Positions 16,001 to 29,703 of a DNA stretch of 30,275 nucleotides are shown here, piece after piece. Position 1 is the first letter of the stretch; each line of letters starts with the position of its first letter. The translations under genes and the position numbers were made by a program. This stretch comes from a virus (taxonomy: Duplodnaviria; Heunggongvirae; Uroviricota; Caudoviricetes), in IMG/VR virus record IMGVR_UViG_3300031994_000015, positions 1 to 30,275 of that record. The stretch is one strand, 5' to 3'. The notes beneath the pieces are model-generated. The model made no database searches, was not told the origin of the DNA, and saw only the letters and a program-made list of their open reading frames with translations.

Positions 16001-18565
16001 ATGATTATAATTAAACGAGATGGTACTCCCCAAGAATATTCTTTCTTGAAAATCGCGGATGCCGTACATAAAGCGTTTGCTTCGGTAGACCAAGATGTTC
16101 CAGATAAGTTTCTTGAGCAAGTAAAAGATTCAGTAGAAAAGCTAATTATCAAGAACAATGGTAATGGTACAGGTATAGAAGAAATTCAAGATTGCATTCA
16201 AAATGAGCTTATTAAGCGTAATAAGTTTGAAGTTGTAGAATCATTTATTGCATATCGTAAAGAACGTGAACGTATTCGTTTGGAAAATACCGATTTGATT
16301 AAACAAATTGAAGAAAAGCTTTATGCAACAAATGTACAAAACCAAAATGCTAATTTAGATGAAGACTCTTTTGGTGGTCGTTTAGGAGAAACTTCAGGTG
16401 TTGTCGCTAAAGATAGAGCTCTTAAGAAGATGTCTAAAATTGGTCGTAAGAATCATGAAGGAAATATGGTTTATATCCATGACTTAGACCATTGGTTAGT
16501 AGGTGATCACAACTGCTTGTCATATCCATTTGATAGTAAACTTAAAGATGGTGTTGTTACAAGACAAACTGATGTTAGAACAGCCGGTTCAATTAATACT
16601 GCTATGCAACTTGTTGCTGTTAATTTCCAATTACAATCATTACAACAATTTGGTGGTGTTGCCGCTACACATATTGACTGGTCTATGGTACCTTACGTCC
16701 GTAAATCATATAGAAAACACTATATCTTTGATTGGATTAAGAAACAACCAGAATTTTCAGATCTTGATATTTTAGGTTTAACATATGAAGAGCTTAAACA
16801 CTGGGTTGAAAATATGATTACTAAGTTTTATTTAACTACAAAACTTAAGGATGAAGATTTTACATTTGCTAATAAGAATCTTGATAATCAATTACGTCAA
16901 GAATCATTATTAGATACAAAACAAGAAACATACCAAGCGGTTGAAGGTATGTATCATAATTTAAATACTCTTCAATCACGTTCAGGTAATCAACTTCCAT
17001 TTACTTCTATAAATTATGGTACTTGTACAGAATTAGAAGGACGTATGGTAACTAAAGCCCTTCTTGAAGTTTCTATAGAAGGACTTGGTAAACATGGTGT
17101 AACATCAATATTCCCTTGTGGAATTTTTCAAATTAAAAAAGGAGTTAATTTCAAACCAGGTGATCCGAACTATGATTTGAAGCGTCTTGCATTGAAATCA
17201 ACAACTATGCGTATTTATCCTAACTATGCTAATTGTGATTGGTCAAATCAAGTAAATTGGTTTAATGCTGATAGAAAACAAAAACAAGAATATATTGAGT
17301 CATTATCTGATCATGATTATGTACAATTGACAAGTGCTATTGAAGATGAACCAAAAATATGTTTTGATAAAGTTGGTTTATATGTTGATGATAGTAAACG
17401 AATTCGTGTAGATATGACAGAACGTCCTATTGAATATTTCTCTACAATGGGTTGTCGTACTGTAAATGGTCTTGATATTAATGCATTTGATAATTTCAAG
17501 AGAAACGTACAATGCATTATGGATGGTAGATATGATGATATAGATGATGTGTTCTCAAGTGTTATTAAAGATGGTCGTGGTAATATTTGTCCTACAACAA
17601 TTATTATGCCAACACTTGCAGCTATGACTCGTAAGAAACTTGAAAAGAAATGGGAAGATTCTGGTGCTGAATATGTTAAAGGACCTGAATATGAAGAAAT
17701 GATGTTCTCTGAATTTATGAAACTTCTCGACAAGAAGATTCATGAGGCTAAAGATATGTTACTTGAACGTTTCAATCATATTTGTTCACAATCACCAAAA
17801 TCTGCTCGTTATATGTATGAAAATCATACTATGGCTGGATATCATGAAGAAGAAGGAATTATTTCAGCTCTTAAGCATGGTACAATTGTTATTGGTCAAT
17901 TAGGTATGGCCGAAACTCTTCAACTTTTATTTGGTTATGATCATACTACAAATAAAGGAATGGAATATGCTAAGAAGATTGAACAATTATTCTTAGATAG
18001 AACCTCAGAATTCAAAAAAGAATATAAACTCAATTTTGGTGTTTATTATACTCCTGCTGAATCATTATGCCATACAGCTATGAAGAAATTCCGTAAAGCA
18101 TTCCCTCAATATTGTCTTGAAAATGTAACATATTACATTAAGAAAGATGGTGAAAAGAAAGAGAAAGAATATTTTACAAACTCTATTCATGTACCAGTTT
18201 ATTATGAATGTGATCCATTTAAGAAGATTGATATTGAAAGTCAATTGACAACTTATTCAAATGCCGGTTGTATTACTTATGTAGAGTTACCAAGTATATC
18301 ATTCAATAATATAGATGGTGTTGAAAAAATAGTTGATTATGCTATTGAACATGATATCCCTTATTTTGCATTGAATTTCCCTCTTAATAGATGTGCAAGA
18401 TGTGGTGAACCTATTTATGATTCTGATTTAGAAGAATGTCCAAAATGTGGTTGCAAGAAAATAATTAGATTAGGTCGTGTAACTGGTTATCTTTCTACAA
18501 CAGTTGAACATTTTAATAAAGGTAAACAAGATGAATTTTATGATAGAGTAAAACACATGAAATAA
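16001..18565 (+). CDS. nrdD: anaerobic (class III) ribonucleoside-triphosphate reductase
   Basis: N-terminal ATP cone (IIKRDG), YIHDLD, TMGCRT, YYTPAESL, C-terminal CxxC..CxxC and RVTGYL glycyl-radical motif. Confidence 0.96.
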   Translation: MIIIKRDGTPQEYSFLKIADAVHKAFASVDQDVPDKFLEQVKDSVEKLIIKNNGNGTGIEEIQDCIQNELIKRNKFEVVESFIAYRKERERIRLENTDLIKQIEEKLYATNVQNQNANLDEDSFGGRLGETSGVVAKDRALKKMSKIGRKNHEGNMVYIHDLDHWLVGDHNCLSYPFDSKLKDGVVTRQTDVRTAGSINTAMQLVAVNFQLQSLQQFGGVAATHIDWSMVPYVRKSYRKHYIFDWIKKQPEFSDLDILGLTYEELKHWVENMITKFYLTTKLKDEDFTFANKNLDNQLRQESLLDTKQETYQAVEGMYHNLNTLQSRSGNQLPFTSINYGTCTELEGRMVTKALLEVSIEGLGKHGVTSIFPCGIFQIKKGVNFKPGDPNYDLKRLALKSTTMRIYPNYANCDWSNQVNWFNADRKQKQEYIESLSDHDYVQLTSAIEDEPKICFDKVGLYVDDSKRIRVDMTERPIEYFSTMGCRTVNGLDINAFDNFKRNVQCIMDGRYDDIDDVFSSVIKDGRGNICPTTIIMPTLAAMTRKKLEKKWEDSGAEYVKGPEYEEMMFSEFMKLLDKKIHEAKDMLLERFNHICSQSPKSARYMYENHTMAGYHEEEGIISALKHGTIVIGQLGMAETLQLLFGYDHTTNKGMEYAKKIEQLFLDRTSEFKKEYKLNFGVYYTPAESLCHTAMKKFRKAFPQYCLENVTYYIKKDGEKKEKEYFTNSIHVPVYYECDPFKKIDIESQLTTYSNAGCITYVELPSISFNNIDGVEKIVDYAIEHDIPYFALNFPLNRCARCGEPIYDSDLEECPKCGCKKIIRLGRVTGYLSTTVEHFNKGKQDEFYDRVKHMK

Positions 18566-22958: not shown

Positions 22959-22996
22959 TTGAATTTTTTTAATAATATTCTATATTTATAATGTAA
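22959..22996 (+). promoter_or_regulatory. repeated phage promoter motif
   Basis: TTGAAT-N14-TCTATATT-N5-TGTAA. Confidence 0.7.
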
Positions 22997-23347: not shown

Positions 23348-24049
23348 ATGTATAGAGAAAGTTTAAACATGATGGAGGCCTCAATTAAGGCTCGTATTAG
23401 TGAAAATATTAAAAAGTATGGTAAGAATTTTCCATGGAAGGCTTGGTTGCCTTCAAATGTAGAGAAAATCGAAAATGATGCTGAAGTAAAATATTATTGC
23501 AAAGGTGATCCGAAGACAGTATTCTCCGGTCGTTTCTGTGCGGTATCAGGTTTTATTTATGCAATTGTGAATGGCAAGTATTCTATTCTTGCTAATCTTC
23601 GTGGCCCTGGTACTCCTGATTATCAAGGATGTTGGAATGCTCCTTGTGGATTCCTTGAGTGTTTTGAAGATTCAAAGGAAGGTATTCAGCGAGAGATCTA
23701 TGAGGAGTGCAAGTTTATCGTTCGTAAGGAAGATTTAAAGGTTGTTCATGTTGAGACCAATCCAGCTGAATGTAATAATGGTAATGTGACAATTCGTCAT
23801 AAAGCATTCCTCGGTAAGATTGTTCCTATGTATCTTAAGTCTTCTGAAGGTGGAGAAGAGAATGAGGTAGATGGAATTAAGTGGATTCCTGTTGAGGAGT
23901 TTGATAATTATAAGTGGGCATTCAACCATGCTAAGACCACTAAGCTTTATGCACCAGGTAAGATTAAGCGCTGGTTAATTGAGTTCTGGTATAACAATTT
24001 CGGTAGTTATAACAAGAATTATACAGATGACATGTATATAAATGATTGA
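23348..24049 (+). CDS. Nudix hydrolase
   Basis: WNAPCGFLECFEDSKEGIQREIYEEC Nudix box; WAFNH as in ADP-ribose pyrophosphatase-like enzymes. Confidence 0.88.
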   Translation: MYRESLNMMEASIKARISENIKKYGKNFPWKAWLPSNVEKIENDAEVKYYCKGDPKTVFSGRFCAVSGFIYAIVNGKYSILANLRGPGTPDYQGCWNAPCGFLECFEDSKEGIQREIYEECKFIVRKEDLKVVHVETNPAECNNGNVTIRHKAFLGKIVPMYLKSSEGGEENEVDGIKWIPVEEFDNYKWAFNHAKTTKLYAPGKIKRWLIEFWYNNFGSYNKNYTDDMYIND

Positions 24050-26214: not shown

Positions 26215-26856
26215 ATGAGTAGAGCAATTTTTCTCGGTAGTTTTAATCCTCCACATAAAGGACATGTTGATTGTATTCAGAGTGTTGTTGACTCTGGTAT
26301 AATGAAAGAATTGAATATTGATAAGATTCATGTAATACCTTGTTGGCAAAACCCAAACAAGAATAAATTTACTGTACCATTTATTAAGCGTTATCAAATG
26401 GTATGGTATATGTTTGGTGATTTGATTCGTGATGGTATTGTTTGTCCTGATGATATTGAAAATCATATTTACCCAAATTATACTTGTACATTGATTGATT
26501 ACTTTAATACTGGTAGAGATGCTTATATCAATAAGAATTTTGAAGGTTTTTGGTGGATTATAACTATTGAGACTATAAAAGAACTTATGGAACAGAAGTG
26601 GAAATGTTCTAAAGAGCTTTTATATGATAATAACTTTATTGTTGTTGGCAAAGATGAAGAAGAATGGAATAATTTACTTAATCAGTTTGTAGATTATAAA
26701 TCAATAATTTGTGCTAAATTTGTAAAATTAAATAGTACACATGATTTTCATTCAACCAAACTTCGTGAAAAAATAAAGAATGGTGAATCTATTGAAGATG
26801 AAACTTGTTTTTGGGTAAATGATTATATTAAAGAAATGAATTTATATAAAGAATAA
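26215..26856 (+). CDS. nadD: nicotinate/nicotinamide-nucleotide adenylyltransferase (NadD-like)
   Basis: GSFNPPHKGH (HxGH), P..QNP.K, YT, STKLRE motifs. Confidence 0.8.
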   Translation: MSRAIFLGSFNPPHKGHVDCIQSVVDSGIMKELNIDKIHVIPCWQNPNKNKFTVPFIKRYQMVWYMFGDLIRDGIVCPDDIENHIYPNYTCTLIDYFNTGRDAYINKNFEGFWWIITIETIKELMEQKWKCSKELLYDNNFIVVGKDEEEWNNLLNQFVDYKSIICAKFVKLNSTHDFHSTKLREKIKNGESIEDETCFWVNDYIKEMNLYKE

Positions 26857-27391: not shown

Positions 27392-27597
27392 TTATGGAAA
27401 ATATTTGGGGAATTTCTTATTTAGTTGCTGGATTTATTGTTGCAATATGGATTTGGTGTAAAGATTACAAACATGATTATAAATTGGCTAAAAGTCAAAA
27501 TGATGTTGAAGATGGAATGGCTGTTATCTTTATGATAATGTTATTTTTATTTTGGCCATTATTTTTAGTACATAAATTATTTAAAAAGATTTTTTAA
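27388..27597 (+). CDS. small membrane protein (2 TM)
   Basis: Two hydrophobic segments, FWP motif. Confidence 0.75.
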   Translation: MIMENIWGISYLVAGFIVAIWIWCKDYKHDYKLAKSQNDVEDGMAVIFMIMLFLFWPLFLVHKLFKKIF

Positions 27598-27630
27598 CTT
27601 TCTATATTTAATTATATTATTATTACATAT

Positions 27631-27702
27631 ATGAAGAATTACAATAACATATCAAGACGAAGAAACCGTAATATAACTATTATGGGTGATATGGAAGTGT
27701 AA
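27631..27702 (+). CDS. Arg-rich leader peptide MKNYNNISRRRNRNITIMGDMEV
   Basis: 23-aa ORF with AGA CGA AGA AAC CGT; preceded by TCTATATT promoter core at ~27601; followed by terminator. Confidence 0.7.
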   Translation: MKNYNNISRRRNRNITIMGDMEV

Positions 27703-27778
27703 AAAAGAAGCAAAACATAATTGATATAAATGTATGCTGGTAACATATCACTCAAGATATTTTACCAGTAATTTTTTT
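27683..27778 (+). promoter_or_regulatory. putative transcription attenuator (antiterminator/terminator)
   Basis: Terminator stem 27735-27749/27756-27770 plus T7 (27772-27778); mutually exclusive 11-bp helix TGGGTGATATG (27683-27693) with CATATCACTCA (27744-27754). Confidence 0.7.
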
Positions 27779-27798
27779 GAATTTTTTATAAGAGATCT

Positions 27799-27836
27799 TT
27801 GAAATATTTTAATTATTTTCTATATTATATTTGTAA
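27799..27836 (+). promoter_or_regulatory. repeated phage promoter motif
   Basis: TTGAAA-N14-TCTATATT-N5-TGTAA. Confidence 0.75.
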
Positions 27837-27850
27837 AATAAACATAAATT

Positions 27851-28126
27851 ATGGGAATAAATAGAAAAATCAAACGAGGAACTTTAGGTCACCGAGATGA
27901 TCCTTTGGTTATAGAATACCAGAATAAGTATAAGATTGGTAAAGGTCTTGTATTTGCCGCTTTAAGAGCTTTTGGTGATTCTAAATATACTCATGAGTTT
28001 TGTGAATTTATTGTTGAATGGCAAAAAACAAATAAAACTTCCGGTATCAGTTTTACCTATCTTGTAGAAGAGTTTGAAGGAACTGGTCATGGAGTAGTTA
28101 TTGAAAATAAATTGAATGCTGAATAA
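27851..28126 (+). CDS. hypothetical protein
   Basis: 91-aa ORF after promoter. Confidence 0.75.
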   Translation: MGINRKIKRGTLGHRDDPLVIEYQNKYKIGKGLVFAALRAFGDSKYTHEFCEFIVEWQKTNKTSGISFTYLVEEFEGTGHGVVIENKLNAE

Positions 28127-28170
28127 CGTTTTACTATATAATATTATGTTTTACCTTTGAATAGTAAAAT

Positions 28171-28242
28171 GCCCCGGTAGTTCAACGGATAGAACAGGAG
28201 TCTTCTAAACTTCTGATTTGGGTTCGATTCCCAACTGGGGTA
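28171..28242 (+). tRNA. tRNA-Arg(UCU)
   Basis: Cloverleaf; anticodon arm GGAGT-CT TCT AA-ACTTC; T loop TTCGATT; no encoded CCA. Confidence 0.9.
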
Positions 28243-28265
28243 CAATTTGATAAACTAACACATTT

Positions 28266-28339
28266 GGCCCAGTAGCTCAATGGATTAGAGCACTTGTCTA
28301 CGAAGCATGGGGTTGTAGGTTCGAGTCCTACCTGGGTCA
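28266..28339 (+). tRNA. tRNA-Arg(ACG)
   Basis: Cloverleaf; anticodon arm CTTGT-CT ACG AA-GCATG (one mismatch); T loop TTCGAGT. Confidence 0.85.
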
Positions 28340-28340
28340 C

Positions 28341-28520
28341 AAATAGTTGGGATGTAGGCTTGGAAGCAGCCATCATCTAAGGAACAAAAAGATATGATTA
28401 AAGTAAGTGGTTTAATAAACTCCGATGGTATGAATTTGGAAACGCGTCACCTTAATTGGGAACTGTCGGAAACGATTTTATCAATGAAATAACATTTGCG
28501 TAACAGCGCACCAACTATTT
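28341..28520 (+). ncRNA. 23S rRNA L11-binding domain (H43-H44, GTPase-associated centre) mimic with 112-nt insert
   Basis: GGATGTAGGCTTGGAAGCAGCCATCATCTAAGGAA...TGCGTAACAGCGCAC aligns to 23S nt ~1055-1104; closed by perfect 10-bp stem AAATAGTTGG/CCAACTATTT. Confidence 0.85.
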
Positions 28521-28523
28521 AAT

Positions 28524-28595
28524 GCCCCGCTAGTTCAATGGATAGAATAAGTGACTACGGATCATTTGATGAGCGTTCGAATCGTTCGTGGGGTA
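28524..28595 (+). tRNA. tRNA-Arg(ACG)
   Basis: Cloverleaf; anticodon arm AGTGA-CT ACG GA-TCATT; T loop TTCGAAT. Confidence 0.9.
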
Positions 28596-28615
28596 CAAAT
28601 TGAGAATGCCAAAAT

Positions 28616-28689
28616 ATTCTTGTAGTTTAATGGTAAAACGCTTGGGATCGATCATTGAAGAAATACGAGTTCGAATCTCGCGCAGGATA
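28616..28689 (+). other. degenerate tRNA-like element (possible TCG anticodon) nested in a larger stem
   Basis: Good D arm (GTTT-AATGGT-AAAAC) and T arm (CGAG-TTCGAAT-CTCG); imperfect acceptor and anticodon arms. Confidence 0.55.
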
Positions 28690-28834
28690 AAGTAGGTTAC
28701 TTGCAAGGTTCTCAATACTCCCATTGGAATAGTAAGTGTACAATTTCTATCTAATGGCCAAGTTAAATGGTTGTATGTATTGGGGTTGGTGCATACGTAA
28801 AATTAATTGATGTAAATCATACAGCAACCACCAT

Positions 28835-28909
28835 GGCCGTGTGGCTCGAAATGAATTAGGCACCTCTCTTCTAAAGAGGATGATGCGGGTTTGAATCCTG
28901 TCACGGTCA
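28835..28909 (+). tRNA. tRNA-Arg(UCU)
   Basis: Anticodon arm CCTCT-CT TCT AA-AGAGG; acceptor GGCCGTG/CACGGTC; atypical D loop and TTTGAAT T loop. Confidence 0.85.
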
Positions 28910-28912
28910 CAA

Positions 28913-29039
28913 AAACTAATACCTTAGTACGATCAATAAATTGGAATACTACGTAGTTAGCTAATCTTATAACGATACATAATAAAGAGTATTAAGCGGA
29001 GTATTTTGGGTGAAGAATCGGAATTCCCAATATTAGTTT
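28913..29039 (+). ncRNA. putative structured RNA with AGUA/GAA (sarcin-ricin/loop E-type) motif
   Basis: 9-bp closing stem AAACTAATA/TATTAGTTT fills the whole inter-tRNA gap; AGTA-CGAT...ATCG-GAA. Confidence 0.45.
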
Positions 29040-29045
29040 ATTTAT

Positions 29046-29228
29046 GGGGATGTAGCTCAGAACTTGGACAGAGCGCGATAAAACGAATGTCGTGGTGGAA
29101 AATGTCTTGAAGGAGAAATCCAGGAGTTAAGTTTGCGGAAGCACCGAAAATGATAGGAATATTAAGTAGGGAAGCGCGTTTTATGTACCACCTTAAACAT
29201 AGCGTGGGTTCGAATCCCATCATCCCTA
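29046..29228 (+). ncRNA. tRNA-like RNA with anticodon arm replaced by a ~130-nt domain
   Basis: Acceptor GGGGATG/CATCCCT, D arm GCTC/GAGC, T arm GTGGG-TTCGAAT-CCCAT; 129 nt between D and T arms. Confidence 0.75.
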
Positions 29229-29233
29229 CATAT

Positions 29234-29305
29234 GCTCTCATAGTTCAAAGGAAAGAATACGAGTTTCCTAAACTTGAGATGTAGGTTCGAATCCTACTGG
29301 GAGTA
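29234..29305 (+). tRNA. tRNA-Arg(CCU)
   Basis: Cloverleaf; anticodon arm CGAGT-TT CCT AA-ACTTG; T arm GTAGG-TTCGAAT-CCTAC. Confidence 0.9.
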
Positions 29306-29335
29306 CTGATTTATTAACTTAAAATTTGATAATAT

Positions 29336-29602
29336 ATGTCTGATAAAGATTTTTGGACTGAAGTTTATTTGCATGCTGTAAAAGAATGTATCACTAAACA
29401 TTGTGGAGATATAGATACATTAGAAAAATTTGAAGCTCAAAATGTAGATATTGATGAACATTTCGAATGTCATTGTGGATATCTTGCAGATATGGCATTA
29501 GAACATTTTAAAGAAAAAATGAAAGAATTTGCAGAAGATTCTAAAAAAGATATAAAGAAAAAGGAAGAAACTAAGAAAAGAAATAAAGAATCATTCAGAT
29601 AA
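29336..29602 (+). CDS. hypothetical protein
   Basis: 88-aa ORF. Confidence 0.75.
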   Translation: MSDKDFWTEVYLHAVKECITKHCGDIDTLEKFEAQNVDIDEHFECHCGYLADMALEHFKEKMKEFAEDSKKDIKKKEETKKRNKESFR

Positions 29603-29632
29603 GAAGTGGCAGAAATGCCACTTTTATTTTTT
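29603..29632 (+). terminator. intrinsic terminator closing the tRNA operon
   Basis: AAGTGGCA-GAAA-TGCCACTT plus T tract. Confidence 0.85.
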
Positions 29633-29652
29633 TAAATATTTCTATATAATAT

Positions 29653-29690
29653 TTGAAAAAATGAAATTATTTTCTATATTATATATGTAA
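29653..29690 (+). promoter_or_regulatory. repeated phage promoter motif
   Basis: TTGAAA-N14-TCTATATT-N5-TGTAA. Confidence 0.75.
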
Positions 29691-29703
29691 ATTAAATATA
29701 ATA

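What the first reader, a model, noticed from the sequence alone, without database searches (positions are those of the whole stretch)
27599..27778. Arginine-sensing leader-peptide attenuator upstream of an all-Arg tRNA array
Seen: a promoter core (TCTATATT, ~27601) precedes a 23-aa ORF (27631-27702) with Arg codons AGA-CGA-AGA-(AAC)-CGT at 27655-27669. Downstream is an intrinsic terminator (27735-27770 plus T7). The distal leader sequence TGGGTGATATG (27683-27693) can form an 11-bp helix with the terminator 5' arm and loop (27744-27754). Established: this is the geometry of trp/his-type ribosome-mediated attenuation. A ribosome stalled on the control codons leaves 27683-27693 free to antiterminate, whereas one reaching the stop codon masks it and the terminator forms. 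The control codons are those read by the downstream UCU and ACG (ICG) tRNAs. Inference: the phage senses shortage or destruction of charged tRNA-Arg and induces its own tRNA-Arg/ncRNA operon, a feedback loop on tRNA supply rather than on amino-acid biosynthesis. Caveat: a second promoter (27799) and a 91-aa ORF lie between attenuator and tRNAs.
Basis: partly seen in the sequence, partly recalled or inferred. Interest (0 to 1): 0.88.

Follow-up and report, generated by a model that had tools for sequence, protein, structure and literature searches.

The report
Arginine-codon attenuator before phage tRNA-Arg operon
A giant gut or rumen phage carries a tiny translated "test" gene holding three or four arginine codons, wired to a switchable transcription stop just upstream of its arginine-tRNA operon, so it probably lets extra transcription into that operon when arginine codons are read slowly; I found no paper describing this kind of control for tRNA genes.

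Summary
The 23-codon ORF (27631-27702), its Arg codons AGA-CGA-AGA-(AAC)-CGT, the hairpin+T7 terminator (27735-27778) and the 11-bp alternative helix (27683-93/27744-54) are all present.

They are not chance. Four diverged lineages keep the same module: the window clade, clade B (L013), a 376-kb phage (L046) and L228. Each has a 22-24-codon ORF with an AGA/CGA cluster at codons 9-13. The ORF spans a two-helix leader hairpin. The 3' side of that hairpin can instead pair with the terminator's 5' arm. That antiterminator is significant in every lineage (p 0.004-0.006) although its sequence differs. Among 25 terminator-like hairpins in this genome, only this intergenic one has such a partner.

In the near-complete 376-kb relative, a 60-tRNA cluster lacks only Arg. 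All Arg tRNAs sit in a separate array in the operon that follows this module.

Two corrections apply. The "promoter" at 27601 is not a member of the phage's 25-copy promoter family and is not conserved. A full-consensus promoter (27795-27842) lies between the terminator and the tRNAs in every lineage, so read-through can only add to promoter-driven expression.

Best reading: a ribosome-mediated, Arg-tRNA-sensing attenuator (about 0.6). This scan has noted the same design in other phage genomes. I found no paper describing it.

The parts
27394..27597 (+). Last gene of the upstream operon (67-69 aa, hydrophobic). Its stop lies 33 nt before the leader ATG.
   Evidence: ORF list. Homologues at 88-90% identity sit in the same position in L038-L042. 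No promoter-family site lies between it and the leader.
27601..27608 (+). It is not a member of the phage promoter family.
   Evidence: PWM score -7.9 bits against 19.5-52 for the 25 members. Not conserved in clades B, C or D.
27631..27702 (+). Leader ORF, 23 codons, MKNYNNISRRRNRNITIMGDMEV, stop TAA.
   Evidence: It is the only frame open from the conserved ATG in all four lineages (22, 23, 23 and 24 codons). The chance of such an ORF with 3 or more Arg in 5 codons is 0.1-0.2% per lineage in shuffles.
27655..27669 (+). Control codons AGA CGA AGA (AAC) CGT.
   Evidence: AGA-CGA-AGA is identical in clades A, B and C. Lineage D has AGA-CGA-AAT-AGA-CGA. CGA makes up only 9% of Arg codons in the phage's genes.
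27648..27693 (+). Leader (anti-antiterminator) hairpin. Outer helix P1 is 27648-54/27687-93. Inner helix P2 is 27666-73/27678-85. The Arg codons lie in the 5' internal loop.
   Evidence: MFE and centroid fold. The same architecture folds at -9 to -11 kcal/mol in A, B, C and D, with four different P2 sequences.
27683..27693 (+). Region 2, the 5' strand of the antiterminator (UGGGUGAUAUG). It lies within the last 7 codons of the leader ORF.
   Evidence: Pairs with 27744-27754. Duplex -16.4 kcal/mol, p 0.004. It is the MFE partner of the terminator's 5' arm in transcripts that lack the 3' arm.
27735..27778 (+). Intrinsic terminator: hairpin 27735-27770 (5' arm and loop contain region 3, 27744-27754) plus T7 at 27772-27778.
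   Evidence: -14 to -15 kcal/mol. In L042 a T-to-G change turns the internal C/U mismatch into a C-G pair.
27795..27842 (+). Consensus phage promoter of the tRNA-Arg operon (TTTGAAA ... TTCTATATTATATTTGTAAAA).
   Evidence: 51.0 bits. It is one of 25 + strand and 0 - strand copies in 158 kb. A promoter sits after the terminator in clades B, C and D too.
27851..28126 (+). ORF91, first gene of the downstream operon. It is a conserved small helical protein with a basic N-terminus, and it is followed by Arg tRNAs in the window, clade B, L018 and L046.
   Evidence: Seven homologues at 55-93% identity. Arg tRNAs follow it in the window, L013-L016, L018 and L046. No Pfam hit and no fold match.
28171..29306 (+). 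tRNA-Arg array: UCU 28171-28243, ACG 28266-28340, ACG 28524-28596, UCU 28835-28910, CCU 29234-29306, with tRNA-like spacers between them.
   Evidence: ARAGORN and Rfam. These are the only tRNAs in the 158 kb held.
29602..29635 (+). Terminator that closes the tRNA-Arg operon. The next consensus promoter lies around 29649-29696 (TCTATATT at 29673).

Best explanation
This is a ribosome-mediated (leader-peptide) transcription attenuator keyed to arginine codons. It sits at the junction between an upstream operon (NUDIX, NMN-adenylyltransferase-like and small membrane proteins) and the operon that carries ORF91 and the phage's arginine tRNAs.

Proposed mechanism:
1. RNA polymerase coming from the upstream operon transcribes a 22-24-codon ORF. 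This ORF spans a two-helix leader hairpin (P1/P2).
2. If decoding is fast, the ribosome runs to the stop codon, which lies at or just past the 3' arm of P1. There it covers region 2. The terminator hairpin plus U-run then forms and transcription ends.
3. If AGA or CGA is read slowly because charged tRNA-Arg(UCU) or tRNA-Arg(ICG) is scarce, the ribosome stalls in the 5' internal loop. It holds the 5' arms of P1 and P2 apart.
4. Region 2 is then free to pair with the terminator's 5' arm as that arm emerges. The terminator cannot form, and the polymerase reads on into the tRNA-Arg operon. This adds to transcription from that operon's own promoter.

The simplest purpose is to match the supply of tRNA-Arg to a 29%-GC phage whose genes use AGA for half of their Arg codons.

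Shown here: the sequence elements, their conservation and covariation, their uniqueness in the genome, and their link to a segregated Arg-tRNA array. Inferred: translation of the ORF, stalling, regulated read-through, and its physiological weight.
For: 1. All elements are present.

2. Four lineages keep the module between diverged genes:
- Window clade: MKNYNNISRRRNRN... (23 codons).
- Clade B, L013/14/15/32: MKQINNISRRRTHN... (22 codons).
- L046, from a 376-kb phage: MKQIISHINRRRIQ... (23 codons).
- L228: MTKVIFIIRRNRRQ... (24 codons).
The upstream genes of A and B share only 32-54% amino-acid identity, with third codon positions about 50-60% identical. Leader blocks of 19-21 nt are nevertheless 100% identical.

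3. Signs of coding:
- Only the ATG frame is open in all four lineages.
- The ATG-to-Arg spacing is 18, 18, 21 and 21 nt, so the indels are in frame.
- A 1-nt indel between A and B changes the C-terminal peptide, yet the stop stays within 2 nt of the same place.
- Within clades, indels fall only in the spacer after the stop. Three of the four substitutions in codons 3-6 are synonymous.
- An ORF of this size holding 3 or more Arg in 5 codons arises in 0.1-0.2% of shuffles per lineage.
- Lineage D rearranges the block to AGA-CGA-AAT-AGA-CGA. What is kept is therefore Arg codons, not one RNA motif.

4. The switch:
- Antiterminator duplex energies are -16.4, -15.4, -14.3 and -15.1 kcal/mol. The terminators are -14.0, -15.2, -11.8 and -12.1.
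- Each duplex is significant, with p 0.004-0.006.
- The pairing sequences are unrelated between lineages: GGUGAUAUG/CAUAUCAC in A and B, UCUGGG/CCCAGA in C, CCCUGA/UCAGGG in D.
- P2 has four different sequences at the same place.
- In nascent transcripts that lack the 3' arm, the MFE structure pairs region 2 with the terminator's 5' arm in all four lineages.

5. Specificity:
- This is the only intergenic one of 25 terminator-like hairpins in the genome with such a partner.
- The junction before the relative's 60-tRNA cluster is a plain terminator plus promoter.

6. Link to Arg tRNAs:
- The downstream operon carries Arg tRNAs in A, B and C, and they also follow the ORF91 homologue in L018.
- In the 98%-complete 376-kb relative, the 60-tRNA cluster lacks only Arg. 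All Arg tRNAs are 235 kb away in this operon.

7. Precedent: in the Salmonella his-leader assay, AGA, CGA and AGG cause strong de-attenuation, and pairs containing CGA are the strongest (PMC4046918).
Against: - A full-consensus promoter lies between the terminator and the operon in every lineage. The tRNAs do not need read-through, and its contribution may be small.
- No dedicated promoter precedes the leader, which is unlike the classical attenuators.
- With the full-length RNA at equilibrium, the terminator wins in clades B and C and only ties in A. The model therefore depends on co-transcriptional kinetics.
- AGACGAAGAA is identical at the nucleotide level in three lineages. Only lineage D separates 'codons' from 'RNA motif'.
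- In clade B the array shows only an intron-bearing UCU tRNA and a CCU tRNA, with no ACG tRNA to read CGA.
- The contig of lineage D ends at the promoter, so its downstream genes are unknown.
- This phage uses no Shine-Dalgarno sequence, so no ribosome-binding site can vouch for translation.
- There are no expression or ribosome-profiling data.
Confidence: 0.6

Rival explanations
1. An RNA switch that does not rely on the ribosome. The leader hairpin, antiterminator and terminator are real. They are flipped by a protein or RNA that binds the conserved purine-rich internal loop (AGACGAAGAA), for example a phage protein such as ORF91 or a tRNA. The ORF is incidental.
For: The loop sequence is identical in three lineages, so it may be selected as an RNA motif. 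The C-terminal half of the peptide is not conserved. The alternative structures are supported independently of any ORF.
Against: The ATG, the open frame, the in-frame indels and the stop position at the 3' edge of the hairpin are kept in four lineages. Lineage D changes the loop sequence but keeps four Arg codons in frame. No Rfam family, T-box included, matches even at E up to 5. There is no T-box-style UGGN bulge or Stem I platform.
Confidence: 0.17
2. An ordinary terminator of the upstream operon next to the next operon's promoter. The small ORF, Arg run and alternative helix are by-products of AT-rich, repeat-prone sequence.
For: Terminator-then-promoter junctions are the rule in this genome. 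The downstream promoter makes a regulated terminator seem unnecessary. At equilibrium the terminator is the favoured fold in clades B and C.
Against: The leader is better conserved than the flanking genes. The ORF with its Arg cluster is retained in four lineages. The antiterminator is significant in each lineage with different sequences. None of the genome's other intergenic terminators has such a partner.
Confidence: 0.08
3. A true small-protein gene: a 22-24-aa arginine-rich peptide with a function of its own, for instance RNA binding. It merely lies before the terminator.
For: Conserved start, length and basic cluster. Synonymous changes occur in codons 3-6.
Against: The C-terminal half is read in a different frame in clade B and is unrelated in C and D. 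This is what one expects when only the act of translation matters. It does not explain the conserved antiterminator.
Confidence: 0.05
4. A ribosome-mediated attenuator that reports general translation capacity or transcription-translation coupling rather than Arg-tRNA specifically, as in the drug-sensing leaders of bmrCD or msrD. Its main output would be the small proteins of the downstream operon, not the tRNAs.
For: The downstream operon begins with one to six small protein genes before the tRNAs. Such leaders are known (PMC4191407, abstract listed).
Against: The one feature kept in all four peptides is the Arg-codon cluster, built from slow AGA and CGA codons. Arg tRNAs are the one constant cargo of the operon, and in the relative they are set apart from all other tRNAs.
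Confidence: 0.1

Closest known systems
Leader-peptide transcription attenuators of amino-acid operons (Salmonella hisL, PMC4046918; E. coli pheL, PMC3082878; trpL, leuL, thrL and ilvL from my own knowledge)
   Same: A short ORF with a cluster of cognate codons. Hairpins of the 1:2, 2:3 and 3:4 type. An intrinsic terminator. A ribosome at the stop codon masks region 2, while a ribosome stalled on the control codons frees it. The distances from codons to terminator (about 110 nt) are comparable.
   Different: The downstream cargo is tRNA genes, not biosynthetic enzymes. The amino acid is arginine, for which I know no classical leader. It lies in a phage. It has no promoter of its own and sits at the end of an upstream operon. 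A strong promoter lies between the terminator and the regulated genes. The host type uses no Shine-Dalgarno sequence.
pheM leader of the pheST operon
   Same: A leader-peptide attenuator that uses cognate codons to regulate a component of the translation apparatus. This is a feedback loop on decoding capacity rather than on amino-acid synthesis.
   Different: It controls an aminoacyl-tRNA synthetase, not tRNA genes. It is bacterial and has its own promoter.
T-box riboswitches (Rfam RF00230)
   Same: They sense the state of a specific tRNA and choose between a terminator and an antiterminator upstream of translation-apparatus genes.
   Different: A T-box binds the tRNA directly through a Stem I specifier codon and a UGGN bulge, and needs no ORF. 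Here there is no Rfam match at E up to 5, no such bulge, and a conserved ORF instead. This element is not a member.
Ribosome-mediated attenuation of bmrCD by the BmrB leader in Bacillus subtilis (PMC4191407; abstract only)
   Same: Translation of a short leader decides between terminator and antiterminator.
   Different: It responds to ribosome-targeting drugs, not to a codon class. It has no link to tRNA genes.
Earlier notes of this scan on other phage genomes (e1-5666186, e1-5666197, e1-5408148 and others; unpublished AI notes)
   Same: Leader ORFs written in the codons of the tRNA genes downstream, each wired to a terminator. Two of them are Arg-only cases in gut or rumen jumbo phages.
   Different: They are on other DNA, which I did not examine. 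They are leads, not evidence.

Membership tests
Ribosome-mediated (leader-peptide) transcription attenuator | A short ORF with a start codon upstream of the terminator, conserved as an open frame | tested here: met
   22-24 codons in four lineages. Only the ATG frame is open.
Ribosome-mediated (leader-peptide) transcription attenuator | A cluster of regulatory codons for one amino acid inside the ORF | tested here: met
   RRR(N)R, RRR, RRR and RRNRR at codons 9-13, written in AGA and CGA codons plus one CGT in the window. Shuffles reach this in 0.1-0.2% of trials. RRR occurs in 4 of 1479 small ORFs genome-wide.
Ribosome-mediated (leader-peptide) transcription attenuator | An intrinsic terminator (hairpin plus U-run) downstream of the ORF | tested here: met
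   -11.8 to -15.2 kcal/mol hairpins with U-runs in all four lineages.
Ribosome-mediated (leader-peptide) transcription attenuator | An antiterminator helix that is mutually exclusive with the terminator | tested here: met
   -14.3 to -16.4 kcal/mol, p 0.004-0.006 in each lineage. The sequences covary. It is the only such case among the genome's intergenic terminator-like hairpins.
Ribosome-mediated (leader-peptide) transcription attenuator | An anti-antiterminator (1:2) pairing that holds region 2 and includes or abuts the control codons | tested here: met
   The P1/P2 leader hairpin has the Arg codons in its 5' internal loop in all four lineages.
Ribosome-mediated (leader-peptide) transcription attenuator | Geometry: a ribosome at the stop masks region 2, and a ribosome stalled on the control codons frees it | tested here: inconclusive
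   Positions fit a footprint of -15 to +11 nt, and nascent-transcript folds choose the antiterminator. At full-length equilibrium, however, the terminator wins in clades B and C. Kinetics cannot be computed here.
Ribosome-mediated (leader-peptide) transcription attenuator | A promoter directly upstream, with the regulated genes directly downstream and no other promoter between | tested here: not met
   No family promoter lies before the leader (the 27601 site scores -7.9 bits). A 51-bit promoter lies after the terminator. This is typical of classical cases but is not a mechanistic requirement.
Ribosome-mediated (leader-peptide) transcription attenuator | Translation of the leader, and read-through that responds to charged cognate tRNA | not testable with these tools
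   Needs reporter assays, Term-seq or Ribo-seq.
T-box riboswitch | Stem I with a specifier loop and distal platform, plus the conserved T-box sequence with a UGGN bulge in the antiterminator | tested here: not met
   No RF00230 match at E up to 5 on 27560-29400. The antiterminator helices have no such bulge.

The most novel reading that the evidence does not exclude
The module is an on-demand repair circuit in a phage-host conflict over tRNA-Arg. The phage keeps its Arg tRNAs, some of them with unusual anticodon stems or introns, apart from its other roughly 60 tRNAs. It places them with ORF91 behind a sensor that fires when host factors cleave, deplete or fail to charge tRNA-Arg, for example an anticodon nuclease or arginine depletion. 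Replacement tRNAs and a possible protective protein are then induced exactly when Arg decoding collapses.
Probability: 0.2. Interest if true: 0.9.

Novelty: new variant of a known kind. Interest (0 to 1): 0.78.

Why it matters
Leader-peptide attenuation is textbook for amino-acid biosynthesis. I found no paper describing it for tRNA genes or for arginine, or describing a phage-encoded case.

If it works as read, a virus measures decoding speed at AGA and CGA with a 23-codon test gene and feeds the result back onto its own tRNA-Arg operon. That would bear on why large phages carry tRNAs, how those tRNAs are regulated, and why Arg tRNAs are kept apart from the other 60 tRNAs in a 376-kb relative.

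It also suggests that tRNA-Arg may be a point of phage-host conflict. The hypothesis can be tested directly with small reporter constructs in Bacteroidota.

This scan has noted the same design in other phage genomes, which suggests a general and so far undescribed principle. Those notes are unverified.

Tried and rejected
Searches that found nothing useful:
- An exact 18-mer from the leader found only unrelated GC-richer phages in IMG/VR. A 30-mer from tRNA-Arg found nothing.
- Single-protein locus scans in IMG/VR with ORF91 and the NMNAT-like gene found nothing.
- The pattern ATGAAG-N18-21-AGACGAAGAA gave more than 120 chance hits and no relatives among those fetched.
- The three-block pattern found only the 376-kb record in IMG/VR and nothing related in GTDB genomes.
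- The 19-mer scan of JGI metagenomes gave one more clade-B copy (L032) and 18 chance hits.

Anchors that failed:
- I used the 63-aa gene after the relative's promoter as an anchor. The family is large, but the copies I fetched lie in other contexts with no leader and no tRNAs.
- One contig look-up was never sent.

Other negative results:
- ORF91: no Pfam hit. The AlphaFold model is four helices (pLDDT 71). Foldseek against the PDB gave nothing with E below 3.
- Rfam found no family on the leader.
- MAFFT misaligned the divergent lineages. I therefore built no covariance model and compared the helices lineage by lineage in scripts.
I re-ran it by reference.

Readings rejected:
- The 27601 site as a promoter.
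- An antisense small gene. The minus-strand ORFs 27639-27755 and L046 5938-6045 read the conserved block in different frames.
- T-box membership.
- A plain terminator.
Full report
**What is there.** The window is the first 30 kb of a 158-kb IMG/VR virus record. It has 29% G+C and an estimated 56% completeness.
- A 23-codon ORF at 27631-27702, MKNYNNISRRRNRNITIMGDMEV.
- Arg codons AGA CGA AGA (AAC) CGT at 27655-27669.
- A hairpin at 27735-27770 followed by T7.
- An 11-bp alternative helix between 27683-27693 and 27744-27754.

The leader forms its own hairpin, with an outer helix P1 (27648-54 with 27687-93) around an inner helix P2 (27666-73 with 27678-85). The Arg codons lie in the 5' internal loop. 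The region folds with z = -3.6. The five tRNA-Arg genes (UCU, ACG, ACG, UCU, CCU; 28171-29306) are the only tRNAs in the 158 kb held.

**Promoters.** The genome has a very clear promoter family, with consensus ATTTGAAwTTTT-N9-TTCTATATTATATwTGTAAAACAAA. There are 25 copies, all on the + strand, and they often lie right after terminators.
It scores -7.9 bits, against 19.5-52 for members, and is not conserved in relatives.
- No family promoter lies between the upstream gene and the leader in any lineage. The leader is therefore most likely transcribed as the tail of the upstream operon, whose promoter is near 22979.

The phage uses no Shine-Dalgarno sequence. SD-like strings upstream of 196 starts are at background frequency, and A is enriched at -3 and at -12 to -16. 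This matches what is reported for Bacteroidetes mRNAs (PMC7366714) and points to a Bacteroidota host. It also means that no ribosome-binding site can be used to judge whether the ORF is translated.

**Relatives.** ORF91 (27851-28126) has seven homologues at 55-93% identity. The contigs behind these and behind neighbouring genes gave four lineages that carry the module:
- Clade A: the window plus L038-L042, which are nearly identical to it.
- Clade B: L013, L014, L015 and L032.
- Lineage C: L046, part of a 376-kb, 98%-complete IMG/VR phage.
- Lineage D: L228.

Between clades A and B the upstream genes share only 32-54% amino-acid identity, and third codon positions are about 50-60% identical. 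Leader blocks of 19-21 nt are nevertheless 100% identical. The element is therefore under selection.

**The ORF is conserved as an ORF.** The peptides are:
- A: MKNYNNISRRRNRNITIMGDMEV
- B: MKQINNISRRRTHNYNYVVICR
- C: MKQIISHINRRRIQIIISGYTEI
- D: MTKVIFIIRRNRRQVKKLALSCYE

Several observations point to coding constraint:
- In all four lineages only the frame of the ATG stays open for 22-24 codons. The other two frames are full of stops.
- The spacing from the ATG to the first Arg codon is 18, 18, 21 and 21 nt, so the indels are in frame.
- A 1-nt indel between A and B changes the reading frame of the C-terminal half, yet the stop falls within 2 nt of the same place.
- Within clades, indels occur only in the spacer after the stop. 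Three of the four substitutions in codons 3-6 are synonymous.
- From a fixed ATG, an ORF of 18-30 codons with at least 3 Arg in 5 codons arises in 0.1-0.2% of dinucleotide shuffles of each leader.
- In the window's genome, RRR occurs in 4 of 1479 six-frame small ORFs, and in only this one of 210 intergenic + strand ORFs.
- The Arg codons are AGA and CGA throughout, plus one CGT in the window. CGA is only 9% of Arg codons in the phage's genes.
- Lineage D rearranges the block to AGA-CGA-AAT-AGA-CGA. What is conserved is therefore an in-frame cluster of Arg codons, not a single RNA word.
- The antisense ORFs that overlap the region read the conserved block in different frames in A and C. I rejected them.

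**The switch is conserved and covaries.** In each lineage the ORF spans a P1/P2 leader hairpin of -9 to -11 kcal/mol, and P2 has four different sequences at the same place. In each lineage the 3' side of that hairpin (region 2) is complementary to the 5' arm and loop of the terminator.

| Lineage | Antiterminator duplex (kcal/mol) | Terminator hairpin (kcal/mol) | Pairing sequences |
|---|---|---|---|
| A | -16.4 | -14.0 | GGUGAUAUG / CAUAUCAC |
| B | -15.4 | -15.2 | GGUGAUAUG / CAUAUCAC type |
| C | -14.3 | -11.8 | UCUGGG / CCCAGA |
| D | -15.1 | -12.1 | CCCUGA / UCAGGG |

- Shuffled leaders give about -7 to -9 +/- 2 kcal/mol, so p is 0.004-0.006 for each lineage. The pairing sequences in A/B, C and D are unrelated.
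- In transcripts cut just before the terminator's 3' arm, the minimum-energy structure pairs region 2 with the terminator's 5' arm in all four lineages.
- As a genomic control I examined 25 terminator-like hairpins on the + strand. The 27735-27770 hairpin has the strongest upstream partner (z -3.7). The only other with a significant one, 27516-27560 (z -2.75), lies inside the ORF69 coding region. The remaining 23 range from -1.1 to +1.9.
- The junction before the relative's large tRNA cluster is a plain terminator plus promoter with no leader ORF.

**Geometry.** I assumed a ribosome footprint of about -15 to +11 nt around the A site.
- A ribosome stalled on the Arg codons covers the 5' arms of P1 and P2 and leaves region 2 free.
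- The stop codon lies at or just after the 3' arm of P1 in all four lineages. A ribosome that finishes the ORF therefore covers region 2 while the terminator is being made.
- The weak point is equilibrium folding. With the complete RNA the terminator wins in B and C and only ties in A. Like classical attenuators, the model depends on the order of synthesis.

**Link to arginine tRNAs.** The operon after the module carries Arg tRNAs in clades A, B and C, and they also follow the ORF91 homologue in L018:
- Window: UCU, ACG, ACG, UCU, CCU.
- L046: ACG, UCU, UCU and CCU, plus one Thr and one more weak ACG.
- L018: ACG, UCU, and a UCU with an intron of about 228 nt.
- Clade B: a UCU with a 221-nt intron, and CCU.

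In the 376-kb relative, a cluster of 60 tRNAs at 328-347 kb covers every amino acid except arginine and adds a CUA suppressor. All Arg tRNAs sit 235 kb away, in the operon that follows the leader module. This segregation argues that Arg tRNAs are expressed under a regime of their own.

There is experimental precedent for the codon choice. In the Salmonella his-leader assay, AGA, CGA and AGG give strong de-attenuation, and pairs containing CGA give the strongest (PMC4046918).

**What remains open.**
- A consensus promoter follows the terminator in every lineage. Read-through can only add to promoter-driven transcription, and its size is unknown.
- The downstream operon starts with one to six small protein genes (ORF91 and others), which could be the main target.
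- Clade B lacks an ACG tRNA.
- Lineage D's contig ends at the promoter.
- Three lineages share the identical AGACGAAGAA, so the case for "codons, not motif" rests on lineage D and on the frame evidence.
- Nothing here shows translation, stalling or regulated termination directly.

**Comparison and novelty.**
- The element meets the structural criteria of a leader-peptide attenuator: an ORF, a codon cluster, a terminator, an antiterminator and an anti-antiterminator.
- It differs from the classical cases in four ways: its place at the end of one operon, the promoter that follows it, its cargo (tRNA genes), and its owner (a phage).
- It is not a T-box. There is no Rfam hit at E up to 5.
- Five full-text searches found no description of an arginine leader, of attenuator control of tRNA genes, or of a phage-encoded case.
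- This scan has already noted the same design in other phage genomes, including two Arg-only cases in gut or rumen jumbo phages. Those are unverified AI notes and I did not count them as evidence.

**Verdict.** My odds:
- Arg-sensing ribosome-mediated attenuator: about 0.6.
- RNA switch not driven by the ribosome: about 0.17.
- Translation-capacity sensor aimed mainly at the small proteins: about 0.1.
- Plain terminator: about 0.08.
- Small protein gene: about 0.05.

Noticed in passing
window 5652, 13080, 21348, 22979, 27819, 29673 and 19 more sites across G000: A 25-copy, strictly + strand promoter family with consensus ATTTGAAwTTTT-N9-TTCTATATTATATwTGTAAAACAAA. It also occurs in the 376-kb relative. 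TTTG-N19-TAnnTT resembles the Bacteroidota -33/-7 promoter type (from memory). Several copies have the previous operon's terminator hairpin overlapping the -35 element (G000 38297, 83683, 106097).
   Followed up: partly
G001 (L047 = 327400-347390; L048 = 84000-100000): The 376-kb relative has a 60-tRNA cluster covering every amino acid except Arg, plus a CUA (amber suppressor) tRNA and two odd tRNAs. All of its Arg tRNAs and one Thr(CGU) are in a separate array 235 kb away. The suppressor hints at TAG recoding.
   Followed up: partly
L013 4617-4910; L018 747-1047: ARAGORN with the intron option calls a tRNA-Arg(UCU) interrupted after the anticodon by an insert of 221-228 nt, directly after the ORF91 homologue. 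This may be an intron-bearing phage tRNA.
   Followed up: no
window 28616-28689 and 29046-29229: Degenerate tRNA-like elements lie between the Arg tRNAs. One scores 28.9 bits in Rfam tRNA, just under the cut-off. ARAGORN calls the other a tRNA with a 90-nt insert.
   Followed up: no
window 27851-28126 (ORF91): A conserved 91-aa protein with a basic N-terminal tail (NRKIKRGTLGH) and an invariant GDSKY motif. The model is four helices (pLDDT 71). It has no Pfam hit and no PDB fold match. Arg tRNAs follow it in the window, clade B, L018 and L046, but not in more distant homologues (L017, L043, L044).
   Followed up: partly
G000 35690-36078 (outside the window): ARAGORN calls a tmRNA-like gene with tag peptide ANDELVDEAWLDSWEYRMAA. 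I did not verify it.
   Followed up: no
window 16001-18565, 23348-24049, 26215-26856: Nucleotide and NAD-related genes lie in the upstream operons: a class III ribonucleotide reductase NrdD (best phage hit Thomasclavelia phage TR-TP1, 54%), a NUDIX hydrolase, and a cytidylyltransferase-like (NMN adenylyltransferase-type) protein.
   Followed up: no
L046 6139-6330 and 78 homologues: The 63-aa protein after the relative's promoter belongs to a large family (55-100% identity, many gut and rumen contigs). The family recurs in several unrelated contexts in these AT-rich phages. Its function is unknown.
   Followed up: partly
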